From Escherichia coli (GTDB lineage Bacteria > Pseudomonadota > Gammaproteobacteria > Enterobacterales > Enterobacteriaceae): a DNA stretch of 64,000 nt. This document shows, in pieces, positions 7,003 to 16,180 of this stretch. Made by a program: the position numbers and the translations under genes. The notes beneath the pieces were generated by a model, which ran no database searches, was not told the DNA's origin, and worked only from the letters and a program-made list of their open reading frames with translations. The stretch is taken from NCBI RefSeq assembly GCF_024298765.1, contig NZ_CP101210.1. One strand, written 5' to 3'. Each line of letters opens with the position of its first letter. Position 1 is the stretch's first letter.

Positions 7003-8397
7003 TCAAAAAAAGTATTTGAAACGTAATCGGGCACCGTAACGATCATCGGTAATGTCACAATTACTATATCTACAGTTACTATCCAGAATTGAGTAATAAG
7101 CCCCGAGGTAAATATTAAAGTTCTCCATATCCATCACATTAGCAAACTGATAAGATGCATGAATGGTGTGAATGTTGTATATTCCTTCACCATCAATCCA
7201 GCAACCATTATTACACACGACACCACTAAATTCATCAATCTTATTATGTGCGTAGATATAACCCAGTTCGAAACGTTTCCACAGAGCATTAATACTGGCA
7301 GTGAAATCTTTCTCATTACTGGCATCCAAATAGGCGGTATTAAGAGTAACCACGATGCCATTTTCCGGATCTGTTTTCAGACCGTTCCATGTCATGCTAA
7401 TACCATAACCGGAACGATTGGACTGATCGACAAAATTCCCCTTATTATCGGTATAGCCATAAGCATTTTTTACCACGTTCGCTTCCATCGCTGCGGAGAC
7501 TGTGAATTCTTCCGTTGGCGACCAGGCAATTACCGGGCGCAGATAAGCGACATTTTTCTGCTGCTCCATATATCGTCCATGATAATTACCGTTATTATAT
7601 AAAGATGTTCCGTCTTCAAGTAACGTGTTTAACTCAAAATACCAGTTATCGAGTTGTTTACTGATGAGGAAATTACCACCAGCGTCAGAACGACCGCGTC
7701 CCTCTTTCATCATATAGATATAACCACGGCCATCAGCATAAATATCATTAGCTGTATTACCGGAATACTCAATGAAAGTATCCTGATTTAGAGGGAACAT
7801 ATCGTAAGCTTCAAAACGACCGACTTTCACTTTCCACTCGTCATCTTTTCCAAAAAAGAATAATGCATCATCAATATTCACTGAACCGTGCATATCCGCC
7901 AGTGGTTGTGCTGAAAATCCAGCGAAATAACCATTATCAAGCTTACGGGTACCGTCAAAACCTAATAGAATACGGCCATTAAGGTCCCACCGTTCATTCA
8001 CTGACTCACTGTTCGCCCCGGAACTTATCATTACTAACTGACCGGGTTTACTGGCAGCATCTATATTAAACTCCACATCACCATAAAACTTCAAATCATT
8101 GTAACCAGAGAGCAGAAAACCTGGAGAAGATGTTTTTTCTTTTGTTGACTCAACTACTGCATAGCTGTTAGCATCTTTTTTATTCTGCTCTGAACTAATT
8201 TGACGTATTTCAGAATGTTGTTCTATATCAAAACTCTTTAACATTCTTTCTGCTTTTTCCGCCCTTTTTTCTGCAGCTTCCAGGCGTTCTTCCAGCAATG
8301 CCATTCTTTGTTCAAGCGTTAGCCCCCCTGTTTTTGCTGCACACGCATTGTATTCCAGTAATAAAAAAAGAGATAAACCCAAAAGTAACTTATTCAT
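7003..8397 (-). CDS. rafY: Outer-membrane glycoporin, RafY-like (raffinose porin)
   Basis: 464-aa ORF with signal peptide, coiled-coil N-terminal extension, C-terminal ...RFKYFF; sits downstream of rafD as in the plasmid raf operon; AT-rich relative to rafABD. Confidence 0.6.
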   Translation of the reverse strand: MNKLLLGLSLFLLLEYNACAAKTGGLTLEQRMALLEERLEAAEKRAEKAERMLKSFDIEQHSEIRQISSEQNKKDANSYAVVESTKEKTSSPGFLLSGYNDLKFYGDVEFNIDAASKPGQLVMISSGANSESVNERWDLNGRILLGFDGTRKLDNGYFAGFSAQPLADMHGSVNIDDALFFFGKDDEWKVKVGRFEAYDMFPLNQDTFIEYSGNTANDIYADGRGYIYMMKEGRGRSDAGGNFLISKQLDNWYFELNTLLEDGTSLYNNGNYHGRYMEQQKNVAYLRPVIAWSPTEEFTVSAAMEANVVKNAYGYTDNKGNFVDQSNRSGYGISMTWNGLKTDPENGIVVTLNTAYLDASNEKDFTASINALWKRFELGYIYAHNKIDEFSGVVCNNGCWIDGEGIYNIHTIHASYQFANVMDMENFNIYLGAYYSILDSNCRYSNCDITDDRYGARLRFKYFF

Positions 8398-8591
8398 TTT
8401 ACCCCCTTAAATAAAAACAAATGTGGGTACTCTTATATTCTCTGTATCAACACAAAATACCATTCATATTCTTCACCAGACTGGTATATATAATCGCAAC
8501 ACATTACCAAAAGCACACAGCAAAGATAATTAATGTGTACTGGCAAAGTAATGACAGATAATGTCAGAAAAAATACTGATATCGATATGTC

Positions 8592-10022
8592 TCAGGTCAG
8601 CATCCATAAAGTGCCATCAGTTAATATCGCATCGCCATGAGCGGCATATAACGATAATTGTCTCGAGTCCGCTTGCGGATAAATACGACTTGATAAGGTT
8701 GCCTCACCATCGTTAACAAACACTTCAACAGATGAACGATCCAAGAAAATACGAAGAGTCAGATATTCTGTATCAGGAAGTTCAACACTGCGGTAACCAT
8801 CCAACCCTTCCTCAGGGTAATAGCGCCACAGTACCAGTCGCCCGGCCTGATTATCCACATAAAGTCGCAGACCGTCTCCAAGGCGGACGCCATAGTGCTC
8901 CGCATGACTGTCAACCGTATGCCACGTCACCAATAATTCTGCGGCCTGTACATTTTCGGTCAGTAATTGCAAACCCTGTAACCTTACAGGGGATAATGGC
9001 TGGCATTTTTTGCGCAGAGATTCGACTTCACGCACAGGTCGCTGGCACAGCCGGCCATCGCGCTCAAAAACCTCTCTGGGCAGCGTCAGACATCCTGCCC
9101 AGGCTTCACTGCGGGTGGGCACGGGTGAATCCCACATATTCATCCATGCCATAATGATACGCCTGCCGTCCTCAGCCAGCATGGACTGTGGAGCATAAAA
9201 GTCATGACCATAATCCAGCTCTTCAAATCCCCCTTTCAGCGCAAAGACAGAACCAGGCTTCCAGCTCCCTGCCAACACACCGCTCTGAAAAAGGTTACGG
9301 AACCGATAACCGGAAGGGGGCATCCCCTGTGGTGAGAACATCAGCCAGTGAAAATTACCACACCTGAAGAAATCGGGGCATTCCCACATATAACTTTTTC
9401 CGGCTGCGGAATGAGCAAGAACATGCTCCAGATGCCAGTCCCGCAAAGATGTCCCGCGATACAACAGAACTTGCCCATTGTCAGAAGCGTCCCGGGCACC
9501 AATGACCATCCACCAGGAGCCGTCTTCGTGCCAGACTTTGGGATCACGGAAATGCATTATACCTTCCGGAGGTGTCAGCACACAGCCCTGCTTCTCAAAG
9601 TGAATACCATCATGACTTGTAGCCAGACACTGTACTTCACGGATAATGCTGTCATTACCACGATCATCGAGACAAATATGACCAGTATAAATAAGTGATA
9701 GCACGCCATCATCATCCACGGCACTCCCTGAAAAACAGCCATCACGATCATATTTATCTCCGGGTGCCAGCGCGATAGGTTCGTGTTGCCAGTGCAACAT
9801 GTCGGTACTGGTGGCATGCCCCCAGTGCATTGGCCCCTGATATGCGCTTGCAGGATGATGCTGGAAGAACGCATGGTAACGCCCATTGAAGTAAATAAGG
9901 CCATTTGGATCATTCATCCAGCCGGCAGGTGGAGCCAGATGAAAAATCGGGTACCAGGCATTACCACGACGTGCGCAAAGTTTTTCAAGGGCAGACTGTG
10001 CCAAAGCAAGACGCTGTTTCAT
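8592..10022 (-). CDS. rafD: Raffinose invertase / sucrose hydrolase (GH32 beta-fructofuranosidase)
   Basis: 476-aa ORF with GH32 motifs WMNDPNGL, FRDP and ECP; start overlaps the rafB stop (TGATG). Confidence 0.85.
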   Translation of the reverse strand: MKQRLALAQSALEKLCARRGNAWYPIFHLAPPAGWMNDPNGLIYFNGRYHAFFQHHPASAYQGPMHWGHATSTDMLHWQHEPIALAPGDKYDRDGCFSGSAVDDDGVLSLIYTGHICLDDRGNDSIIREVQCLATSHDGIHFEKQGCVLTPPEGIMHFRDPKVWHEDGSWWMVIGARDASDNGQVLLYRGTSLRDWHLEHVLAHSAAGKSYMWECPDFFRCGNFHWLMFSPQGMPPSGYRFRNLFQSGVLAGSWKPGSVFALKGGFEELDYGHDFYAPQSMLAEDGRRIIMAWMNMWDSPVPTRSEAWAGCLTLPREVFERDGRLCQRPVREVESLRKKCQPLSPVRLQGLQLLTENVQAAELLVTWHTVDSHAEHYGVRLGDGLRLYVDNQAGRLVLWRYYPEEGLDGYRSVELPDTEYLTLRIFLDRSSVEVFVNDGEATLSSRIYPQADSRQLSLYAAHGDAILTDGTLWMLT

Positions 10023-11299
10023 CAGTTAATCTCCGAATGCGCTGCAGGGGCTTTTTCTACAGAAGGGTGTACGCTCCCGCGGGAAGAACTCAGCGTGAAA
10101 ACTGATATCACGGTAACAGTCAGAGCAATCATCCCGAGCACAAAATACGTATTCTGGAATCCCATACGATCATACAGGTGGCCGGCAAAGGTAGAGAGAA
10201 GTATTGCAGCAAGTTGTTTGGAAAACTGAAAACCTATTAAATAAACGGTCGCTGACAGTCGGGTGTCAAACACTGCCGTAATATATTTGAACGCCCCAAC
10301 CAGCAAAAATGGAACTTCAAGAGCGTGAAGCATTTTCAGAATCACCACTTCTGTCGCGGTGGTGGCAAAAGCAGAACCGGTAATGCGGATGGTCATAATT
10401 CCCCCCGCAACAAGCAGGGTATTTTTGGCACCAATGCGATGAATTATCCATGGTGTACAGAACATGATAATGGCATTACAAATCTCCCCCGCAGTGGTAG
10501 CAAATCCGAATGCTTTTATTCCTGCCTGAGGAGTGTCAAAGAATGAACGAAAAAATGTGGCAAACTGCTGATCAAATACATCATAGACACAGGCCACACC
10601 AATCGTGTAGAGAACAAACATCCACATCTGACGCATGCGAAACAGGCTGAAGACCATTCTGGTCGAAATCAGGGAAGAATTGGCACCCAGTGTATTCATA
10701 ACCATTGCCGTCTGGCTGGTACTGGGGCGCGCCAGAAACAACAGAAGAAGCAACAATAATGCGCTTCCTGACCCCATCCAGAAAACCAGAGAAGGATCGA
10801 CATTAAAAAGCATTCCAGCCATAGCCGCACATAACGCCCAGCCCAGACACCCGAACATCCTCGCTTTACCGTATTCAAATCCACGACTGCGACTGACCCG
10901 CTCTATATAAGCTTCAATAGCTCCGGCACCTGCAGAAAACACAAAACCAATAAAGACACCGCCAGTCAGTGCGCCTGCCCAGATATTGAAGCGCAGCAGG
11001 GGCGCAAATACATATAAAAAAAAGGGGGCGAAAAATACAAGTAACAGGCTGATACTCCAGATCAGGTTTTTTTTCAGTCCCAGGCGATCTGATATGACCC
11101 CAAGCAATGGCTGGAAACTGATGGCAAACAGAGAAAGACATGAAAAGACTATACCTGTATCCGTTTTACTCAGTCCGACCACATCGGACAGCCATACAGG
11201 CAAAAACGGAAAACAGGTTGCCATGATGAAAAAGTAGAGAAAGAAGAACAGACCGAAAATCCAGAAATCGGGATTTTTATGCGTACTTGCAGAATTCAT
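10022..11299 (-). CDS. rafB: Raffinose permease (LacY-family oligosaccharide:H+ symporter)
   Basis: Strong resemblance to LacY along the whole length (NPDFWIFGLFFFLYFFIM…, MFGCLGWALCA…); start set at MNSASTHKNPDFW (425 aa). Confidence 0.85.
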   Translation of the reverse strand: MNSASTHKNPDFWIFGLFFFLYFFIMATCFPFLPVWLSDVVGLSKTDTGIVFSCLSLFAISFQPLLGVISDRLGLKKNLIWSISLLLVFFAPFFLYVFAPLLRFNIWAGALTGGVFIGFVFSAGAGAIEAYIERVSRSRGFEYGKARMFGCLGWALCAAMAGMLFNVDPSLVFWMGSGSALLLLLLLFLARPSTSQTAMVMNTLGANSSLISTRMVFSLFRMRQMWMFVLYTIGVACVYDVFDQQFATFFRSFFDTPQAGIKAFGFATTAGEICNAIIMFCTPWIIHRIGAKNTLLVAGGIMTIRITGSAFATTATEVVILKMLHALEVPFLLVGAFKYITAVFDTRLSATVYLIGFQFSKQLAAILLSTFAGHLYDRMGFQNTYFVLGMIALTVTVISVFTLSSSRGSVHPSVEKAPAAHSEIN

Positions 11300-11361
11300 T
11301 ATTCTTACCCTCACGGGATAATATTGAGAAACAGGACGGAGCTGAGGCTCCGTACCTCTCT

Positions 11362-13488
11362 TCACACAGCTCTTTCAAGTGCTATCAAAATCGCACTCTC
11401 CGGATCCAGTACGGGGAGCTGAATCCCTCCCTGTGCCAGCCATTCACCACTGGCCTCAAGGCTCTGATTCATCCAGACAGGTAATTTGCGCATGGTATGA
11501 CCGCCTTCACCAACCACCTGGAGGTCCGGGTGATCAATAACCCGAAGCCGGTAACGCACTTCCGCCGCCAGACCGGGAAAACGAAGTATGCCTGGTAAGG
11601 TGTAATCCGGCATTGCAAGCTGGCTGATCATAAAAAGTGCCTGAGACTGATCAGGGCTGACGACTCCCTGAACCTGTATCGAAGGATCTGGCATATCCAC
11701 ACGCCAGAGAACTCCTGTATGAATCAGTTGTCGCCATTCTTTATAGAGCAAGGCATACCGGCGATAACCGTCAGATTCCTTCGCATCTGCGGCCACCGGA
11801 TCCAGCTCCAGCCCCATATGGCCGAACAATGCCGTCAGCCCACGAAAAGCGATGCTGTGCTGCCGGAAAGTTGCATGGCAGCGGCGATGGCCAATATGCG
11901 CCCCCATCACCTCAGGAGGGAAAAAGTAACTCATGCCACGTTGTATGGTGCAGCGCTCCAGGGCATCATTATTGTCAGATGCCCAGAACCGGTGTGTGCG
12001 TTTCAGGACTTCGAAGTCAATACGCCCCCCACCGGAAGCACAGGACTCAAACTCAACATGTGGAAAACGTTCACGGAGGAGATCAAGCAATCGATAGAAC
12101 TGACGGGTCTGTGCATCTGCTGCCGCACGGCCTTCATGCCCTGCCTGTACAAGCTCACGATTCATGTCCCATTTCACATAATCAACCGGATGTTCTCCCA
12201 GTAACCATAAGAAACGTTCATAAATGTAAGCAAAGGCCTCTGGAATATTCAGGTTAAGAACATACTGATATCTTCCGGTTGGCTGGGAATATCCAGGCAT
12301 TGACAATACCCAGTCAGGATGAAGACGAAACAGGTCAGAATCCGGGTTAATCATTTCCGGCTCAACCCATATGCCAAATTCCATACCGAGAGATTTCACA
12401 TGTTTAATAACCGGCATCAGCCCGTTCGGGTATTTCTGTTCATCGGTATACCAGTCGCCCAGAGCCGCGCGGTCATCGTTACGTCCTTTAAACCAGCCAT
12501 CATCAATAATGAAACGTTCAACGCCCAGTGCTGCTGCACGCTCAGCCATCTGCATGATGTAATCAGGATTGTGATTGAAATAAATACCTTCCCAGGTATT
12601 GAGATGTACAGGGCGGGGTTTTTGCTCAGGGAAACGGATAATTTCATCACGCAAAAAACGATGGTATTGCTGACTCATTCCATTCAGGCCATCCGCAGAG
12701 TGGCAGGCATATAGCCACGGGGTGTACAGGGTTTCATTCTTCCTGAGAGCCTTCTCACCCGGCATCCACAGAGCCTCAGCCTGAACGTAACGCCTGCCGT
12801 CAGTTTTTGCCTCACATCTCATGCGGTGATTTCCACTCCACCCCAGATGCACAGCCCACACCTCTCCCTGTTGTTCCGAGAAGCCTGGCGTGCCGACAAT
12901 CAGCGCCGGAAAATGCTCATGAGATGTCCGCCCTCTGCGATTTTCCAGAACAAAAGCATCATGAGTGAGACGTACCCTGTGCGGCTGAAATTCACGAGTC
13001 CAGCGTCCGTGAAAAGCCATGACTTCTTCCGCACGTTCCGCTAAAGGTAAAGTGATGGCGAAACGATTTATCTGCCAGTCCCCCTCTCTGAGGTTGGTCA
13101 GTGCATGACGAACTTTCAGAATTCCTGATGGCGTCATCACCAGCTCGCTGACCAGACGCAGGCCGGCTACCGAATCTTCACTGGTAAGTCTCAGAGTGTT
13201 TTCGGTATGTTCCACGTCAACTGTATAAAAAACAGGAGATGCATCCAGCCCATTCCTGTGTCCTTCCAGTCCCGGAGAGCTAAAAAGTCCCAGGGCATTT
13301 TCAGCCATCAGTGTTAGTGGCGTATCAATATCCAGACGACCATTCGCAACCGGTCTTTCCAGGCTGGCACAGTCATCCGGTGAGAAATGTTTCAGTGCAG
13401 AGCCCCACCAGATAATTTCTGCATGTGGACGGGTTTTAATAATTAAATCAGAGCGAGGACTGCTCAGTCTGCAGTACTTTGAAACCAT
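11362..13488 (-). CDS. rafA: Alpha-galactosidase (GH36)
   Basis: 708-aa ORF; GH36-like; position between rafR and rafB. Confidence 0.85.
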   Translation of the reverse strand: MVSKYCRLSSPRSDLIIKTRPHAEIIWWGSALKHFSPDDCASLERPVANGRLDIDTPLTLMAENALGLFSSPGLEGHRNGLDASPVFYTVDVEHTENTLRLTSEDSVAGLRLVSELVMTPSGILKVRHALTNLREGDWQINRFAITLPLAERAEEVMAFHGRWTREFQPHRVRLTHDAFVLENRRGRTSHEHFPALIVGTPGFSEQQGEVWAVHLGWSGNHRMRCEAKTDGRRYVQAEALWMPGEKALRKNETLYTPWLYACHSADGLNGMSQQYHRFLRDEIIRFPEQKPRPVHLNTWEGIYFNHNPDYIMQMAERAAALGVERFIIDDGWFKGRNDDRAALGDWYTDEQKYPNGLMPVIKHVKSLGMEFGIWVEPEMINPDSDLFRLHPDWVLSMPGYSQPTGRYQYVLNLNIPEAFAYIYERFLWLLGEHPVDYVKWDMNRELVQAGHEGRAAADAQTRQFYRLLDLLRERFPHVEFESCASGGGRIDFEVLKRTHRFWASDNNDALERCTIQRGMSYFFPPEVMGAHIGHRRCHATFRQHSIAFRGLTALFGHMGLELDPVAADAKESDGYRRYALLYKEWRQLIHTGVLWRVDMPDPSIQVQGVVSPDQSQALFMISQLAMPDYTLPGILRFPGLAAEVRYRLRVIDHPDLQVVGEGGHTMRKLPVWMNQSLEASGEWLAQGGIQLPVLDPESAILIALERAV

Positions 13489-13526
13489 AAGACATTCTCC
13501 TTTCTCAGGGATGCCTTACTGTTGAT

Positions 13527-13561
13527 CCGAAACGTTTCGGGTATCAACCAAAACGTTTCGG
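13527..13561 (-). promoter_or_regulatory. Two palindromic operator-like sites (CCGAAACGTTTCGG at 13527..13540 and CCAAAACGTTTCGG at 13548..13561) in the rafA promoter region; candidate RafR operators
   Basis: Perfect and near-perfect 14-bp palindromes 21 bp apart centre to centre, 40–73 bp upstream of the rafA start, adjacent to the LacI-family repressor gene. Confidence 0.55.
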
Positions 13562-13583
13562 ATATGTGAGCTGGATAAAAAAA

Positions 13584-14594
13584 TCAGGAGCAAGGAGGAT
13601 GAATCGTCTTTCCCGGATAAAATACCGGGTTCCAGACAACCTGTAGTGGTTTTGATGATGAATCAGTAATTATCTGATATATCATCTCGGAAATCTGGCG
13701 ACCAACGAGGCTTCGTGTTGACTGAATAACTGCAGCCACATCCAGCTCAATAATACTGTCCTGTGGCAAACCATCATATACAACCAGAGATACCGCATCT
13801 TTTCCTGAAAGACGACCGCTCAACTGCAGTGCCATGGCAGCACCATCTCCACTCAGGTCATTGTCAGTAATAATAGCTGTTGGTGGTATCGGTAGTGACA
13901 TTAACTCCATCACGGCCTGATATCCTGCTCGCCGTGTGGGAGAAACCAGCCGCAGCCATGTATCTTCCAGTTCATGCTCATTCAGTGCATCAAGCCATCC
14001 CTGACGTCTTGCAACAACATAGCTATGTGAAGTGTCTTCACTCAACAATGCAATACGTTTATGTCCCAAAGCAATCAGTTTCTGGGTTGCCTGTCCAGTC
14101 CCGGCATGATTATCAAAGTCAAACCACGCACAGGGCAGACCAGATGGTACCCGACCAAGAGCCAGAAATGGAATACCTGCTTTATGAAGGTGTGTGATAC
14201 GGGGATCGTCATCCAGAGTGTGTGCAATGATGAGAGCATCAACCCTGCGACTTTCAACAAGCCGCATATAGCTGTGGCAATCGGCATGCTCATCATCAGC
14301 TATCAGTAGTAAGTCAATATCATGGTGAGCAAGTTCCCGGCTGATGCAACTGACCATATCCATAAAAACACCACTGTTAAATGGCACATCACGTCCAGGA
14401 TAAACCAGACCGACAGCATCGGTTTTACCGGTTTTGAGTCTTCTTGCCTGAGTATTAGGACGGTAACCGCGTCGACGAGCTTCAGCTTCCACCCGTGCAC
14501 GGGTGGAAGCTGACACATCTGCATAGCCTCCAAGAGCCCGACTGACAGTGGTGACAGAAACTCCGAGTGCAGTGGCAATCGCCTTAAGTGACAT
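13584..14594 (-). CDS. rafR: LacI-family transcriptional repressor of the raf operon
   Basis: 336-aa ORF; N-terminal HTH (LKAIATALGVSVTTVSRAL); periplasmic-binding-protein-like sugar-binding core. Confidence 0.8.
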   Translation of the reverse strand: MSLKAIATALGVSVTTVSRALGGYADVSASTRARVEAEARRRGYRPNTQARRLKTGKTDAVGLVYPGRDVPFNSGVFMDMVSCISRELAHHDIDLLLIADDEHADCHSYMRLVESRRVDALIIAHTLDDDPRITHLHKAGIPFLALGRVPSGLPCAWFDFDNHAGTGQATQKLIALGHKRIALLSEDTSHSYVVARRQGWLDALNEHELEDTWLRLVSPTRRAGYQAVMELMSLPIPPTAIITDNDLSGDGAAMALQLSGRLSGKDAVSLVVYDGLPQDSIIELDVAAVIQSTRSLVGRQISEMIYQIITDSSSKPLQVVWNPVFYPGKTIHPPCS

Positions 14595-14617
14595 ATTATC
14601 TCCTGCTAATTATTATA

Positions 14618-14660
14618 GTAGACCGTCCCCCTAAATCTCCAGACAACCAATATCACTTAT
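14618..14660 (+). mobile_element. IS2 left-end remnant (~42 bp, about 38/42 identical to the IS2 left IR as recalled), 24 bp upstream of the rafR start
   Basis: TAGACCGTCCCCCTAAATCTCCAGACAACCAATATCACTTAT versus recalled TAGACTGGCCCCCTGAATCTCCAGACAACCAATATCACTTAA. Confidence 0.5.
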
Positions 14661-14676
14661 TGTAAGTTAACGGAAT

Positions 14677-14701
14677 CCCTCTGATCTGTAAGATCAGAGG
14701 G
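14677..14701. other. Perfect hairpin/palindrome CCCTCTGATC-TGTAA-GATCAGAGGG downstream of the integrase stop
   Basis: 10-bp perfect stem, 5-nt loop; no flanking U-tract on either strand. Confidence 0.5.
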
Positions 14702-14743
14702 AAAGGTTATTGATTGTGAGAATAATTTCAGGACAAAGTGTAA

Positions 14744-15928
14744 TTAACTCTCCTGGATGGAAAGTGAATCAATGTAGTCAGCGTACCATTGCATCATTTC
14801 ACGGCGACCATCGAGATACAGGGCATGATTATAGGTACCCCTGATGGAATTTTTATCCACATGAGCTAACTGCATTTCAATCCAGGCAGAATTAAAGCCC
14901 TGTTCGTGCAGAATGGTACTCATGGTGTGACGAAAACCATGACCGGTTGCCCTGCCATCGTAACCGATACGTTTGAGCACCATATTGATGCTGGCTTCGC
15001 TCATTGGCTTGTTGATATCACAACGTCCCGGGAAAACCAGCCGGTATTGTCCGGAGAAAGTTTTGAGCTGCAGCAGAATGTCAGTGGCCTGTCGTGACAG
15101 TGGTACGACATGTTTACGTCGCATTTTCATGCGGCTTTCAGGGATTGTCCACAGGGCATTATCAAAATCAATTTCTGACCATTCAGCGGACCGTAGTTCA
15201 ATCGTTCTGAGGCCTGTCAGAAGCAGCAGATTTGTCGCCATGCGGGTAACAGGACTGCCATGATATTCAGCGAGCTTCCGGAGAAAAACAGGGAGCTCAT
15301 CTGCTCTCAGGTGGGGGAAATGTGCAGCTTTTGGCGCCGCCAGCGTACTGGTCAGTTCAGATGCCGGATTGACAGTGGCTCGTCCGGTGGCGATGGCATA
15401 ACGAAAAATCTGATTACAGTATTGACGCACCTTACGAAGTTTTTCCAGCGAGCCACGTTTTTCTATGCGGCGCAGAATTTCCAGCATTTCCAGCGGGAGG
15501 ATATCAGTAACGCTTCGTTTGCCCAGATACGGGAAAATATCTTTATCCAGAGCCTCCAGTACGCTTCTGGCGTAACTTTCAGACCATGACAAAGATTTAT
15601 GCTGATGCCATTCCGTAGCAAGGGCATGGAACGTATTGGTGGCAGAGATTTTCTGAGTGAGTTTTTCCTTTCGCTTCTTTTCGCCCGGGTCGCCACCTTC
15701 GGAGATAATTTTTCGGGCATCGTCGCGTTTGATTCTGGCTTCAGCAAGGGAGACGTCGGGATAGACGCCGAGGGCCAGTTTTTTCTCTTTTCCTGCTATC
15801 CGGTATTTAAGCCGCCAGTAGCGGGCACCCGTGGTTTTTACCAGCAGATATAAACCACGTTCGTCAGAGAGTTTATAGTCTTTTTCTTTAGGTCTGGCTG
15901 TTTCGACCTGTCTGGCTGTAAGTGCCAT
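14744..15928 (-). CDS. int: Tyrosine recombinase, P4-type phage/island integrase
   Basis: N-terminal MALTARQVETARPKEKDYKLSD…GLYLLV typical of P4-family integrases; C-terminal catalytic region; immediately adjacent to tRNA-Phe; ORF track start at 15958 probably too early. Confidence 0.85.
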   Translation of the reverse strand: MALTARQVETARPKEKDYKLSDERGLYLLVKTTGARYWRLKYRIAGKEKKLALGVYPDVSLAEARIKRDDARKIISEGGDPGEKKRKEKLTQKISATNTFHALATEWHQHKSLSWSESYARSVLEALDKDIFPYLGKRSVTDILPLEMLEILRRIEKRGSLEKLRKVRQYCNQIFRYAIATGRATVNPASELTSTLAAPKAAHFPHLRADELPVFLRKLAEYHGSPVTRMATNLLLLTGLRTIELRSAEWSEIDFDNALWTIPESRMKMRRKHVVPLSRQATDILLQLKTFSGQYRLVFPGRCDINKPMSEASINMVLKRIGYDGRATGHGFRHTMSTILHEQGFNSAWIEMQLAHVDKNSIRGTYNHALYLDGRREMMQWYADYIDSLSIQES

Positions 15929-16000
15929 ATGGGGGCTCCTGAAACTGACTGAACACAATGAGCCCCCACCGGTGCCCCCAATGAACGCTTGATTGAGAGA

Positions 16001-16085
16001 GAGTTCAGTAGAGTTCGGTGGAGTTCAGGATGTTCAGATTGCTTGTAACGATGTGATTATACTTGAGTTTCGTGGAGTTCGGGAG
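16001..16085. repeat. Cluster of GAGTTC(A/G)G direct repeats between integrase and tRNA (candidate arm-type recombinase binding sites)
   Basis: Three tandem 10-bp-spaced copies at 16001, 16011, 16021, plus variants at ~16032, 16065, 16075. Confidence 0.35.
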
Positions 16086-16104
16086 ATGAATCTGGAAGTG
16101 AAAG

Positions 16105-16180
16105 TGGTGCCCGGACTCGGAATCGAACCAAGGACACGGGGATTTTCAATCCCCTGCTCTACCGACTGAGCTATCCGGGC
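16105..16180 (-). tRNA. pheV: tRNA-Phe (anticodon GAA)
   Basis: Reverse complement reads GCCCGGATAGCTCAGTCGGTAGAGCAGGGGATTGAAAATCCCCGTGTCCTTGGTTCGATTCCGAGTCCGGGCACCA, 76 nt with CCA end; pheV assignment from flanking yqgA/speC. Confidence 0.95.

What the first reader, a model, noticed from the sequence alone, without database searches (positions are those of the whole stretch)
13527..13561. Twin palindromic operators in the rafA promoter
CCGAAACGTTTCGG (perfect palindrome) and CCAAAACGTTTCGG lie 21 bp apart (two helical turns), 40–73 bp upstream of the rafA start and next to the LacI-family repressor gene. Two operators bracketing the promoter are consistent with published descriptions of dual-operator RafR control.
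Basis: partly seen in the sequence, partly recalled or inferred. Interest (0 to 1): 0.35.

Follow-up and report, generated by a model that had tools for sequence, protein, structure and literature searches.

The report
Known twin RafR operators of raffinose operon
The two near-identical palindromes are real and are the long-known pair of repressor-binding sites (O1 and O2) that keep the E. coli raffinose-utilisation genes off until the sugar is present, so the finding is correct but ordinary.

Summary
CCGAAACGTTTCGG (13527-13540) and CCAAAACGTTTCGG (13548-13561) lie 21 bp apart in the 95-bp spacer between a LacI-family repressor gene (rafR, 14594-13584, minus strand) and rafA (13488-11362, minus strand). 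Shuffled sequence gives no exact match.

The window is E. coli chromosome. A tRNA-Phe/integrase island carries rafR-rafA-rafB-rafD-rafY, and its spacer is base-for-base identical to plasmid raf loci.

In 14 of 15 distinct rafR-rafA-rafB loci from Enterobacterales and an Enterovibrio, both sites persist. Spacing is 21 bp, or 20 bp in Serratia. A TCACA (CRP half-site) and a TTG (-35) sit at fixed offsets while the flanks diverge. The RafR recognition helix is invariant. The motif occurs nowhere else in any locus.

The literature already describes this. Papers of 1990-1994 are titled for two adjacent raf operators. A 2014 comparative study states that RafR of Enterobacteriales has only double sites 21-22 bp apart.

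Best reading: two RafR dimers sit on one DNA face over the -35 hexamer and spacer and block RNA polymerase. Melibiose or raffinose releases them, and CRP activates. An RNA hairpin or terminator role has no support.

Verdict: already known, low interest.

The parts
13546..13563 (-). Distal operator (O1 in the published naming). The 18-bp element on the gene strand is ATCCGAAACGTTTTGGTT, with 14-bp core 13548-13561. Its inner half-site is the weaker CCAAAAC.
   Evidence: It is conserved in 14 of 15 distinct raf loci. The inner half-site is CCAAAAC in 10 of 14 loci.
13525..13542 (-). Proximal operator (O2). The 18-bp element on the gene strand is ACCCGAAACGTTTCGGAT, with a perfect 14-bp palindromic core at 13527-13540. 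It fills the spacer between the inferred -35 and -10.
   Evidence: It is conserved in all 15 loci, and is the perfect 18-mer ATCCGAAACGTTTCGGAT in six of them.
13542..13547 (-). Inferred -35 hexamer TTGATA between the two operators.
   Evidence: Read directly from the sequence. TTG is kept in most orthologues, with gap sequences such as TTGATA, TTGGCA, TTGCTA and TTGTTA. That it functions as the -35 is inference plus my recollection of the 1990 paper.
13519..13524 (-). Inferred weak -10 hexamer CAACAG, 17 bp after TTGATA. The conserved block GGATCAACAGTAAG(G/A)CAT follows O2. The inferred transcription start is near A13512.
   Evidence: Conservation of 1.46 bits per column over +14..+26 against 0.52 further downstream. 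The consensus promoter scan does not call this site, as expected for an activator-dependent promoter. The start site is not mapped here.
13562..13583 (-). Candidate CRP (CAP) site TTTTTTTATCCAGCTCACATAT, starting directly after the rafR stop codon. It has a strong right half TCACA (13569-13565) and a weak left half TTTTA. Its centre at 13572.5 is -60.5 if transcription starts at 13512.
   Evidence: TCACA/TCACG sits 29 bp before the O2 core in 14 of 15 loci, and 28 bp in Serratia, which has a 1-bp shorter gap. (G)ATCACA carries 1.46 bits per column. CRP binding is not tested here.
13497..13502 (-). Shine-Dalgarno AAGGAG, 8 nt before the rafA ATG.
   Evidence: GGAG is conserved in most of the orthologues.
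13584..14594 (-). rafR, a LacI/GalR-family repressor of 336 aa. It has an intact HTH (recognition helix SVTTVSRAL) and hinge (ARRLK), and no LacI-type C-terminal tetramerisation helix.
11362..13488 (-). rafA, a GH36 alpha-galactosidase of 708 aa and the first gene of the controlled operon. It is followed by rafB (10022-11299), rafD (8592-10022) and rafY (7003-8397).

Best explanation
These are the twin operators O1 and O2 of the raffinose (raf) operon promoter, here in a chromosomal copy carried on a tRNA-Phe-integrated island.

Each 18-bp palindrome has the consensus ATCCGAAAC|GTTTCGGAT with a central CpG. Each is the binding site for one dimer of the LacI/GalR-family repressor RafR, whose gene ends 20 nt upstream.

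The centres are 21 bp apart, which is two helical turns, so both dimers sit on the same face of the DNA. O1 abuts the -35 hexamer (TTGATA) on its upstream side. O2 fills the -35/-10 spacer. With both sites occupied, RNA polymerase cannot bind.

The inducer is melibiose, formed from or alongside raffinose. It lowers RafR's affinity for DNA and frees the promoter. The promoter has a poor -10 and depends on cAMP-CRP bound at a half-conserved site immediately upstream of O1.

What is shown here: the sequence anatomy, the gene identities, the identity to plasmid raf loci, and deep conservation of the whole CRP-O1-(-35)-O2 layout together with an invariant RafR reading head.

What is inferred or taken from the literature: actual RafR binding, the dimeric state, the inducer, the position of the transcription start (about 13512), and CRP dependence.
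For: Anatomy and chance:
- Both sites are at the stated coordinates, with none expected by chance.

Locus identity:
- rafR has LacI HTH and sugar-binding domains.
- rafA, rafB, rafD and rafY are identified.
- The spacer is identical to plasmid pIP1206, and RafR is 332/336 identical to the plasmid protein.
- The same 401 bp occur in 466 of 5426 complete E. coli genomes and in 171 plasmid records.

Phylogenetic footprint across 15 distinct rafR-rafA-rafB loci (RafR 56-100% identical):
- Both operators are present in 14 of 15 loci.
- Spacing is 21 bp in 13 loci and 20 bp in 1.
- TCACA is at a fixed offset in all 15.
- The O1 core carries 1.55 bits per column and the O2 core 1.85. The sequence upstream of TCACA carries 0.83 and the leader 0.52.

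Specificity:
- The RafR recognition helix and hinge are invariant, while the rest of the protein falls to 52% identity.
- The motif is found only in the rafR-rafA spacer of every locus and not in unrelated LacI-family loci.

Literature:
- The titles of the primary papers on two adjacent raf operators are listed.
- Melibiose is the reported RafR ligand (PMC13056197).
- RafR lacks LacI's C-terminal tetramerisation segment in that paper's alignment.
Against: No binding, footprint or expression data exist for this allele in anything I could read. The primary papers with the operator sequences and the mapped start site are not in the library.

The consensus sigma-70 scan does not call a promoter here. 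TTGATA plus CAACAG is only 7 of 12 matches, so the -10 and the start site are inferred from geometry and conservation only.

The RafR sequence printed in the literature is only 87% identical to the window's protein, though the DNA-reading residues are the same.

The mode of binding is unsettled. PMC4052901 suggests obligatory cooperativity, while a 1990 title speaks of 'successive binding'.
Confidence: 0.93

Rival explanations
1. The two palindromes act at the RNA level. Transcripts reading out of rafR would fold O1 against O2 into a 16-bp hairpin. That hairpin could terminate or stabilise the rafR message, or insulate rafA from read-through. This could replace or add to operator function.
For: The minus-strand RNA 13585-13505 folds with a 16-bp stem at -24.8 kcal/mol, z = -4.77, and 0 of 200 shuffles fold as well. 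No intrinsic terminator is called between rafR and rafA on the gene strand, so rafR transcripts probably do cross the element. One locus (pLH50) carries an A-to-T change in both outer half-sites that keeps O1-O2 complementarity.
Against: No T/U run follows the stem. Any two copies of one palindrome are automatically complementary, so the stem needs no separate selection. Covariation amounts to 1 compensatory pair, matched or exceeded in 64 of 500 shuffles, and several loci carry changes that break O1-O2 pairing. One locus lacks O1 altogether yet keeps O2 and TCACA. The only Rfam hit is a spurious miRNA-hairpin match far below its gathering score.
Confidence: 0.05
2. The sites are targets of a different LacI-family regulator of the host, such as RbsR or Cra, rather than or as well as RafR. 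This would cross-wire raffinose use to ribose or global carbon control.
For: The 12-bp centre CGAAACGTTTCG is identical to that of the E. coli rbs operator used for the RbsR-DNA crystal, GTCAGCGAAACGTTTCGCTGA (bioRxiv 10.1101/2025.04.02.646877). The best NCBIfam match of RafR is an RbsR-type model, though far below its cut-off.
Against: The outer positions CC/GG and AT are as conserved as the centre, and they differ from rbsO (GC...GC). The sites always travel with rafR, including on plasmids and islands in many genera, and co-occur with an invariant RafR recognition helix (VTTVSR). Double sites are reported as a property of the RafR regulog.
Confidence: 0.02
3. The palindromes are chance or a mobile-element remnant with no regulatory role.
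For: None beyond the locus lying in a horizontally acquired island.
Against: Zero exact matches in 100 shuffles. The sites are conserved with fixed spacing across loci whose flanks and coding regions have diverged to 56% protein identity.
Confidence: 0.005

Closest known systems
raf operators O1/O2 of the plasmid-borne raf operon (pRSD2 lineage; Aslanidis & Schmitt 1990, Muiznieks & Schmitt 1990 and 1994; titles seen)
   Same: The gene order rafR-rafA-rafB-rafD(-rafY) is the same. There are two adjacent palindromic sites in the rafR-rafA spacer, a LacI-family repressor, and melibiose as ligand. The spacer is identical to plasmid pIP1206. In the porcine-ETEC plasmid allele, whose RafR is 97% identical to the RafR printed in the literature, the operators have the same cores and the same 21-bp spacing.
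   Different: This copy is chromosomal, on a tRNA-Phe island. It is an allelic variant. RafR is 87% identical to the literature sequence. The outer flanking bases of the 18-mers differ at a few positions: window ATCC.../ACCC... against ETEC1720 AACC.../GTTC.... The published operator sequence itself could not be read here.
RafR regulog of Enterobacteriales in the LacI-family comparative study (Ravcheev et al. 2014, PMC4052901)
   Same: That study states the regulog has only double sites 21-22 bp apart, with even palindromes and a central CG. This is exactly what I find in 14 of 15 loci.
   Different: I also see a 20-bp spacing in a Serratia locus and a single-operator locus in a Yersiniaceae metagenome contig. 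Whether that study recorded these is unknown.
rbs operator / RbsR of E. coli
   Same: It is a LacI/GalR-family palindrome with the identical 12-bp centre CGAAACGTTTCG.
   Different: rbsO is a single site with GC...GC outer positions and a different repressor reading head. raf has CC...GG and two sites.
lac (O1/O2/O3) and gal (OE/OI) multi-operator systems
   Same: Both use more than one operator per promoter for a LacI/GalR repressor, with CRP activation of a weak promoter. This rests on established knowledge.
   Different: lac and gal operators lie 92-401 bp and about 113 bp apart and work by DNA looping (established knowledge). LacI does so as a tetramer. The raf sites are adjacent at 21 bp, both within the polymerase footprint. 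RafR lacks the LacI tetramerisation helix.

Membership tests
raf operon twin operators (RafR-controlled rafA promoter) | Two near-identical palindromic sites of about 18 bp in the spacer between rafR and rafA | tested here: met
   13525-13542 and 13546-13563. These are the only occurrences in the window and in every related locus.
raf operon twin operators (RafR-controlled rafA promoter) | Centre-to-centre spacing of about 21-22 bp, so both sites lie on the same helical face | tested here: met
   21 bp here. It is 21 bp in 13 and 20 bp in 1 of 14 two-site loci. PMC4052901 gives 21-22 bp.
raf operon twin operators (RafR-controlled rafA promoter) | An adjacent gene encodes the LacI/GalR-family repressor RafR with an intact DNA-binding head | tested here: met
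   PF00356 and PF00532 are present. The protein is 99% identical to plasmid RafR and 87% to the RafR printed in PMC13056197 S1 Fig. The recognition helix is invariant across orthologues.
raf operon twin operators (RafR-controlled rafA promoter) | The controlled operon is rafA (alpha-galactosidase), rafB (LacY-type permease) and rafD (sucrose hydrolase) | tested here: met
   The Pfam families are Melibiase/GH36 and LacY_symp. The annotation of the identical chromosomal locus gives a GH32 protein and a carbohydrate porin.
raf operon twin operators (RafR-controlled rafA promoter) | The sites flank the -35 box of the mapped promoter | tested here: inconclusive
   TTGATA lies exactly between the cores, and TTG is conserved. 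No start-site data were available, and the consensus scan does not call the promoter. That the published sites flank the -35 box is my recollection of the 1990 paper and is not verified here.
raf operon twin operators (RafR-controlled rafA promoter) | Sequence identity with the published O1/O2 sequences | not testable with these tools
   The primary papers are not held. A text search for the operator strings found only the rbs operator.
raf operon twin operators (RafR-controlled rafA promoter) | RafR binds both sites and is released by melibiose or raffinose | not testable with these tools
   This needs EMSA, footprinting or reporter assays. The ligand is taken from PMC13056197.
raf operon twin operators (RafR-controlled rafA promoter) | A CRP/CAP site upstream of O1 gives positive control | tested here: inconclusive
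   TCACA/TCACG is at a fixed offset in all 15 loci, and the 22-mer matches the CRP consensus at 14 of 22 positions with a weak left half (and my count). Binding is not tested.
LacI/GalR-type operator | [quoted passage not shown] | tested here: met
   Both sites are 18 bp with a central CG. Their centres are 45 and 66 nt before the rafA ATG. The criteria are quoted from PMC4052901.
Intrinsic (rho-independent) terminator | A G+C-rich stem-loop immediately followed by a T run | tested here: not met
   The stem exists. It is followed by CAACAGTAAGG with no T run, and the terminator scan does not call it.

The most novel reading that the evidence does not exclude
The O1-O2 super-palindrome may be dual-use. 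Besides binding RafR on DNA, it could fold as a 16-bp hairpin at the 3' end of rafR read-through transcripts, since no terminator separates rafR from rafA. That hairpin could set rafR mRNA stability or basal rafA expression. The matching changes seen in some lineages would then reflect selection, or template-switch correction, acting on the whole 39-bp inverted repeat (13525-13563) rather than on each operator alone. Those changes are the same A-to-T in both outer half-sites of pLH50 and G-to-A in all four half-sites of Serratia.
Probability: 0.06. Interest if true: 0.3.

Novelty: already known. Interest (0 to 1): 0.08.

Why it matters
It matters little beyond correct annotation. The element is the textbook-style control region of the raffinose operon, described experimentally in 1990-1994 and recovered by comparative genomics in 2014. 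The check does show three things. The chromosomal, island-borne raf copy found in about 9% of complete E. coli genomes keeps an intact repressor and intact operators. Automatic annotation under-names this RafR allele. The whole CRP-O1-(-35)-O2 layout is unusually rigid across Enterobacterales, which makes it a clean natural example of adjacent double operators for a dimeric LacI/GalR repressor.

Tried and rejected
- **Primary literature.** Aslanidis & Schmitt 1990 (PMC208720, PMID 2180920), Aslanidis et al. 1989 (PMC210573), Ulmke et al. 1997 (PMC179467) and the two Mol Gen Genet papers by DOI are not held.
- **Text searches.** Searches for raf operator terms and author names returned mostly unrelated papers. 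Searching for the operator strings returned only the rbs operator and an unrelated primer.
- **Genome-contig scan.** The scan with the single RafR protein returned only three distant LacI-family loci (27-31% identity) without the motif. Orthologues were obtained instead through the protein search and exact-sequence look-ups.
- **RNA hairpin or terminator reading.** The fold is strong. It was rejected because there is no T run, covariation is not above shuffles, and the only Rfam hit is a spurious miRNA-precursor match at 31 bits against a gathering score of 81.
- **Intra-operator dyad covariation.** This gave no signal either, because almost all columns are invariant.
- **Autoregulation of rafR.** No operator-like site within 2 mismatches lies upstream of rafR. 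The nearest 3-mismatch hit, 14964-14977, is inside the integrase gene. This idea was rejected.

Full report
**Observation**

On the + strand, 13527-13540 reads CCGAAACGTTTCGG, a perfect palindrome. 13548-13561 reads CCAAAACGTTTCGG. The repeat finder reports them as one direct-repeat family with 21-bp start-to-start spacing. It also reports a larger inverted repeat with 16-nt arms, 94% complementary and 7 nt apart.

Exact matches to CCRAAACGTTTCGG occur only at these two places in 64 kb. One hundred dinucleotide-preserving shuffles gave none. Nothing else in the window comes within two mismatches.

**Surroundings**

The genes here run on the minus strand:

| Gene | Coordinates | Product | Evidence |
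|---|---|---|---|
| rafR | 14594-13584 | 336 aa, PF00356 (LacI HTH) and PF00532 (sugar-binding) | |
| rafA | 13488-11362 | 708 aa GH36 alpha-galactosidase | |
| rafB | 11299-10022 | 425 aa LacY-type permease | |
| rafD | 10022-8592 | 476 aa, annotated as a GH32 protein | |
| rafY | 8397-7003 | 464 aa, annotated as a carbohydrate porin | |

The repressor scores as a LacI/GalR-family member in NCBIfam but reaches no equivalog cut-off. Upstream of rafR lie a tyrosine integrase (15958-14744) and tRNA-Phe (16180-16105).

The 401 bp around the finding are 100% identical to many E. coli chromosomes. There the same order holds: yqgA, tRNA-Phe, integrase, regulator, alpha-galactosidase, MFS transporter, GH32, porin, IS1. 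So the window is E. coli chromosome with a tRNA-Phe island carrying raf.

The same stretch is 99.3% identical to more than 140 plasmids. The rafR-rafA spacer itself is base-for-base identical to plasmid pIP1206. RafR is 332/336 identical to the plasmid protein, and none of the four differences lies in the first 60 residues. In all, 466 of 5426 complete E. coli genomes carry it, at 311 chromosomal and 188 plasmid places.

**Anatomy on the gene strand**

- rafR stop codon TGA: 13586-13584
- T-rich stretch and TCCAGC, then TCACA: 13569-13565
- Distal 18-mer ATCCGAAACGTTTTGGTT: 13563-13546
- TTGATA: 13547-13542
- Proximal 18-mer ACCCGAAACGTTTCGGAT: 13542-13525
- CAACAG: 13524-13519
- TAAGGCAT, with the A at 13512
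- AAGGAG: 13502-13497
- rafA ATG: 13488

**Comparative test**

I collected rafR-rafA-rafB loci with progressively diverged RafR.

- Plasmid alleles at 89, 88, 79.5 and 65% identity.
- Ten loci found by exact look-up of RafR homologues. Most are chromosomal, and RafR is 56-76% identical to the window's protein. They come from Enterovibrio, Cronobacter, Lelliottia, Pluralibacter, Pantoea, Providencia, Serratia, Kluyvera, Dickeya and a Yersiniaceae metagenome contig.

All keep the synteny. The results across 15 distinct loci are as follows.

- Both operators are present in 14.
- The spacing is 21 bp in 13 and 20 bp in Serratia.
- The Yersiniaceae locus keeps only the proximal site.
- TCACA/TCACG sits 29 bp before the proximal core in all of them, or 28 bp in Serratia.

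Information content by region:

| Region | Bits per column |
|---|---|
| O2 core | 1.85 |
| O1 core | 1.55 |
| (G)ATCACA | 1.46 |
| 12 bp after O2 (ATCAACAGTAAG) | 1.46 |
| Between the cores | 1.02 |
| Upstream of TCACA | 0.83 |
| Leader | 0.52 |

The 58 half-sites give the consensus A-(T/A)-C-C-(G/A)-A-A-A-C next to the dyad. The full operator is therefore ATCCGAAAC|GTTTCGGAT with a central CG. The inner half of O1 is the weaker CCAAAAC in 10 of 14 loci.

The RafR recognition helix (SVTTVSRAL) and hinge (ARRLK) are invariant, while the rest of the protein falls to 52% identity. The degenerate motif occurs only in the rafR-rafA spacer of each raf locus and not in three unrelated LacI-family loci. 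This is the pattern expected of a repressor and its cognate operators.

**Literature**

The primary papers are not in the held library. Their titles are listed in PMC13056197:

[quoted passage not shown] That paper also gives melibiose as RafR's reported ligand.

Its printed RafR sequence is 97% identical to the RafR of a porcine ETEC plasmid (L009) and 87% to the window's RafR. The mismatches to L009 look like text or old sequencing errors. The classically studied allele is therefore a sister of this one. In that allele the operator cores and the 21-bp spacing are the same. The same alignment shows RafR ending before LacI's C-terminal tetramerisation segment.

Ravcheev et al. 2014 (PMC4052901) state that most LacI-family motifs are even palindromes with a central CG lying 30-140 bp before the start codon. 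[quoted passage not shown] My comparative result therefore reproduces a published one.

**Mechanism**

Shown here:

- two 18-bp CG-centred palindromes, two helical turns apart
- a conserved TTG-containing hexamer between them
- a conserved CRP-like half-site 18 bp upstream of the O1 centre
- a cognate LacI-family gene with an invariant reading head

Inferred:

- One RafR dimer binds per operator, on the same DNA face. The dimers cover positions of about -51 to -13 and exclude RNA polymerase.
- Melibiose or raffinose relieves the repression.
- CRP compensates for the poor -10.

If transcription starts at A13512, the geometry is:

| Element | Position |
|---|---|
| TTGATA | -35..-30 |
| CAACAG | -12..-7 (17-bp spacer) |
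| O1 centre | -42.5 |
| O2 centre | -21.5 |
| CRP 22-mer centre | -60.5 |

From my own recollection, unverified here, the literature describes O1 and O2 as 18-bp palindromes flanking the -35 box, with a CAP site centred near -60.5. That agrees with this geometry.

The consensus promoter scan does not call this promoter. That fits an activator-dependent promoter, but it leaves the start site unproven.

Whether the two dimers bind cooperatively or successively (title) cannot be settled here. The conserved weaker inner half of O1 would suit ordered occupancy, with O2 filled first.

**Rivals**

- RNA hairpin. The RNA read through from rafR would fold O1 against O2 into a 16-bp stem (-24.8 kcal/mol, z = -4.77). 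No terminator is called between rafR and rafA. However, no T run follows the stem, and two copies of one palindrome are complementary by construction. Covariation is a single compensatory pair, matched or exceeded in 64 of 500 shuffles. One locus lacks O1 altogether. The only Rfam hit is a sub-threshold miRNA-hairpin artefact.
- Cross-recognition by RbsR. This is conceivable because the central 12 bp equal those of the rbs operator. But the outer, equally conserved positions differ, and the sites always travel with rafR.
- Chance. This is excluded.

**Verdict**

The element is an allelic, chromosomal copy of the known raf O1/O2 twin operators. It is already known and of low interest.

Noticed in passing
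window 7003-16180 (minus strand): The raf cluster is the first cargo of a genomic island inserted at tRNA-Phe (16180-16105). A P4-type tyrosine integrase (15958-14744) lies directly before rafR. In an identical chromosome, IS1 and integrase fragments follow rafY.
   Followed up: partly
window 13584-14594: RefSeq/PGAP names this RafR allele 'substrate-binding domain-containing protein' on chromosomes, while the 99%-identical plasmid allele is named 'LacI family DNA-binding transcriptional regulator'. The HTH (PF00356) is intact in both, so the difference is a naming artefact and not a truncation.
   Followed up: yes
L007 (plasmid pLH50-c-A) 4531-4569: In the 79.5%-identity allele, the outer half-sites of both operators carry the same A-to-T change (CCGAATC). 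This breaks each operator's own symmetry but keeps the symmetry of the whole O1-O2 repeat. It may reflect equivalent outer contacts, quasipalindrome template-switch correction, or chance.
   Followed up: partly
L016 (Serratia marcescens contig) 4023-4056: All four half-sites read CCAAAAC (G-to-A at position 5), and the operators are 20 bp rather than 21 bp apart. The RafR recognition helix is unchanged.
   Followed up: partly
L019 (Yersiniaceae metagenome contig) 4060-4115: This is a single-operator variant. O2 and the TCACA half-site keep their usual distance, but the O1 position holds unrelated sequence (CCCACCTCTTCCAC). It is an exception to the reported 'only double sites' rule.
   Followed up: partly
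window 13524-13527; orthologous loci L008, L011-L015: GATC (Dam) sites overlap the outer edge of O2 (GGATCAAC). In many orthologues they also overlap the outer edge of O1 (AGATCCG) and the CRP half-site (GATCACA). Whether methylation matters is untested.
   Followed up: no
window 7268-7281: TCGAAACGTTTCCA lies inside rafY and has the 10-bp operator centre intact (3 mismatches to the operator). It is about 6.2 kb from the promoter and is probably chance: 8 such non-operator hits against 3.3 expected.
   Followed up: partly
window 14612-14641 (minus strand): A promoter-like site TGGAGA-18-TATAAT (10/12) lies just upstream of the rafR start (14594). It is a candidate constitutive rafR promoter, and no operator-like site is near it.
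   Followed up: no
PMC13056197 Table 1 / S1 Fig (not in the window): That paper cites GenBank AM886293.1 (which I recall is pIP1206) for RafR. The sequence it prints is 97% identical to the porcine-ETEC plasmid allele and only 87% to the pIP1206 protein.
   Followed up: partly
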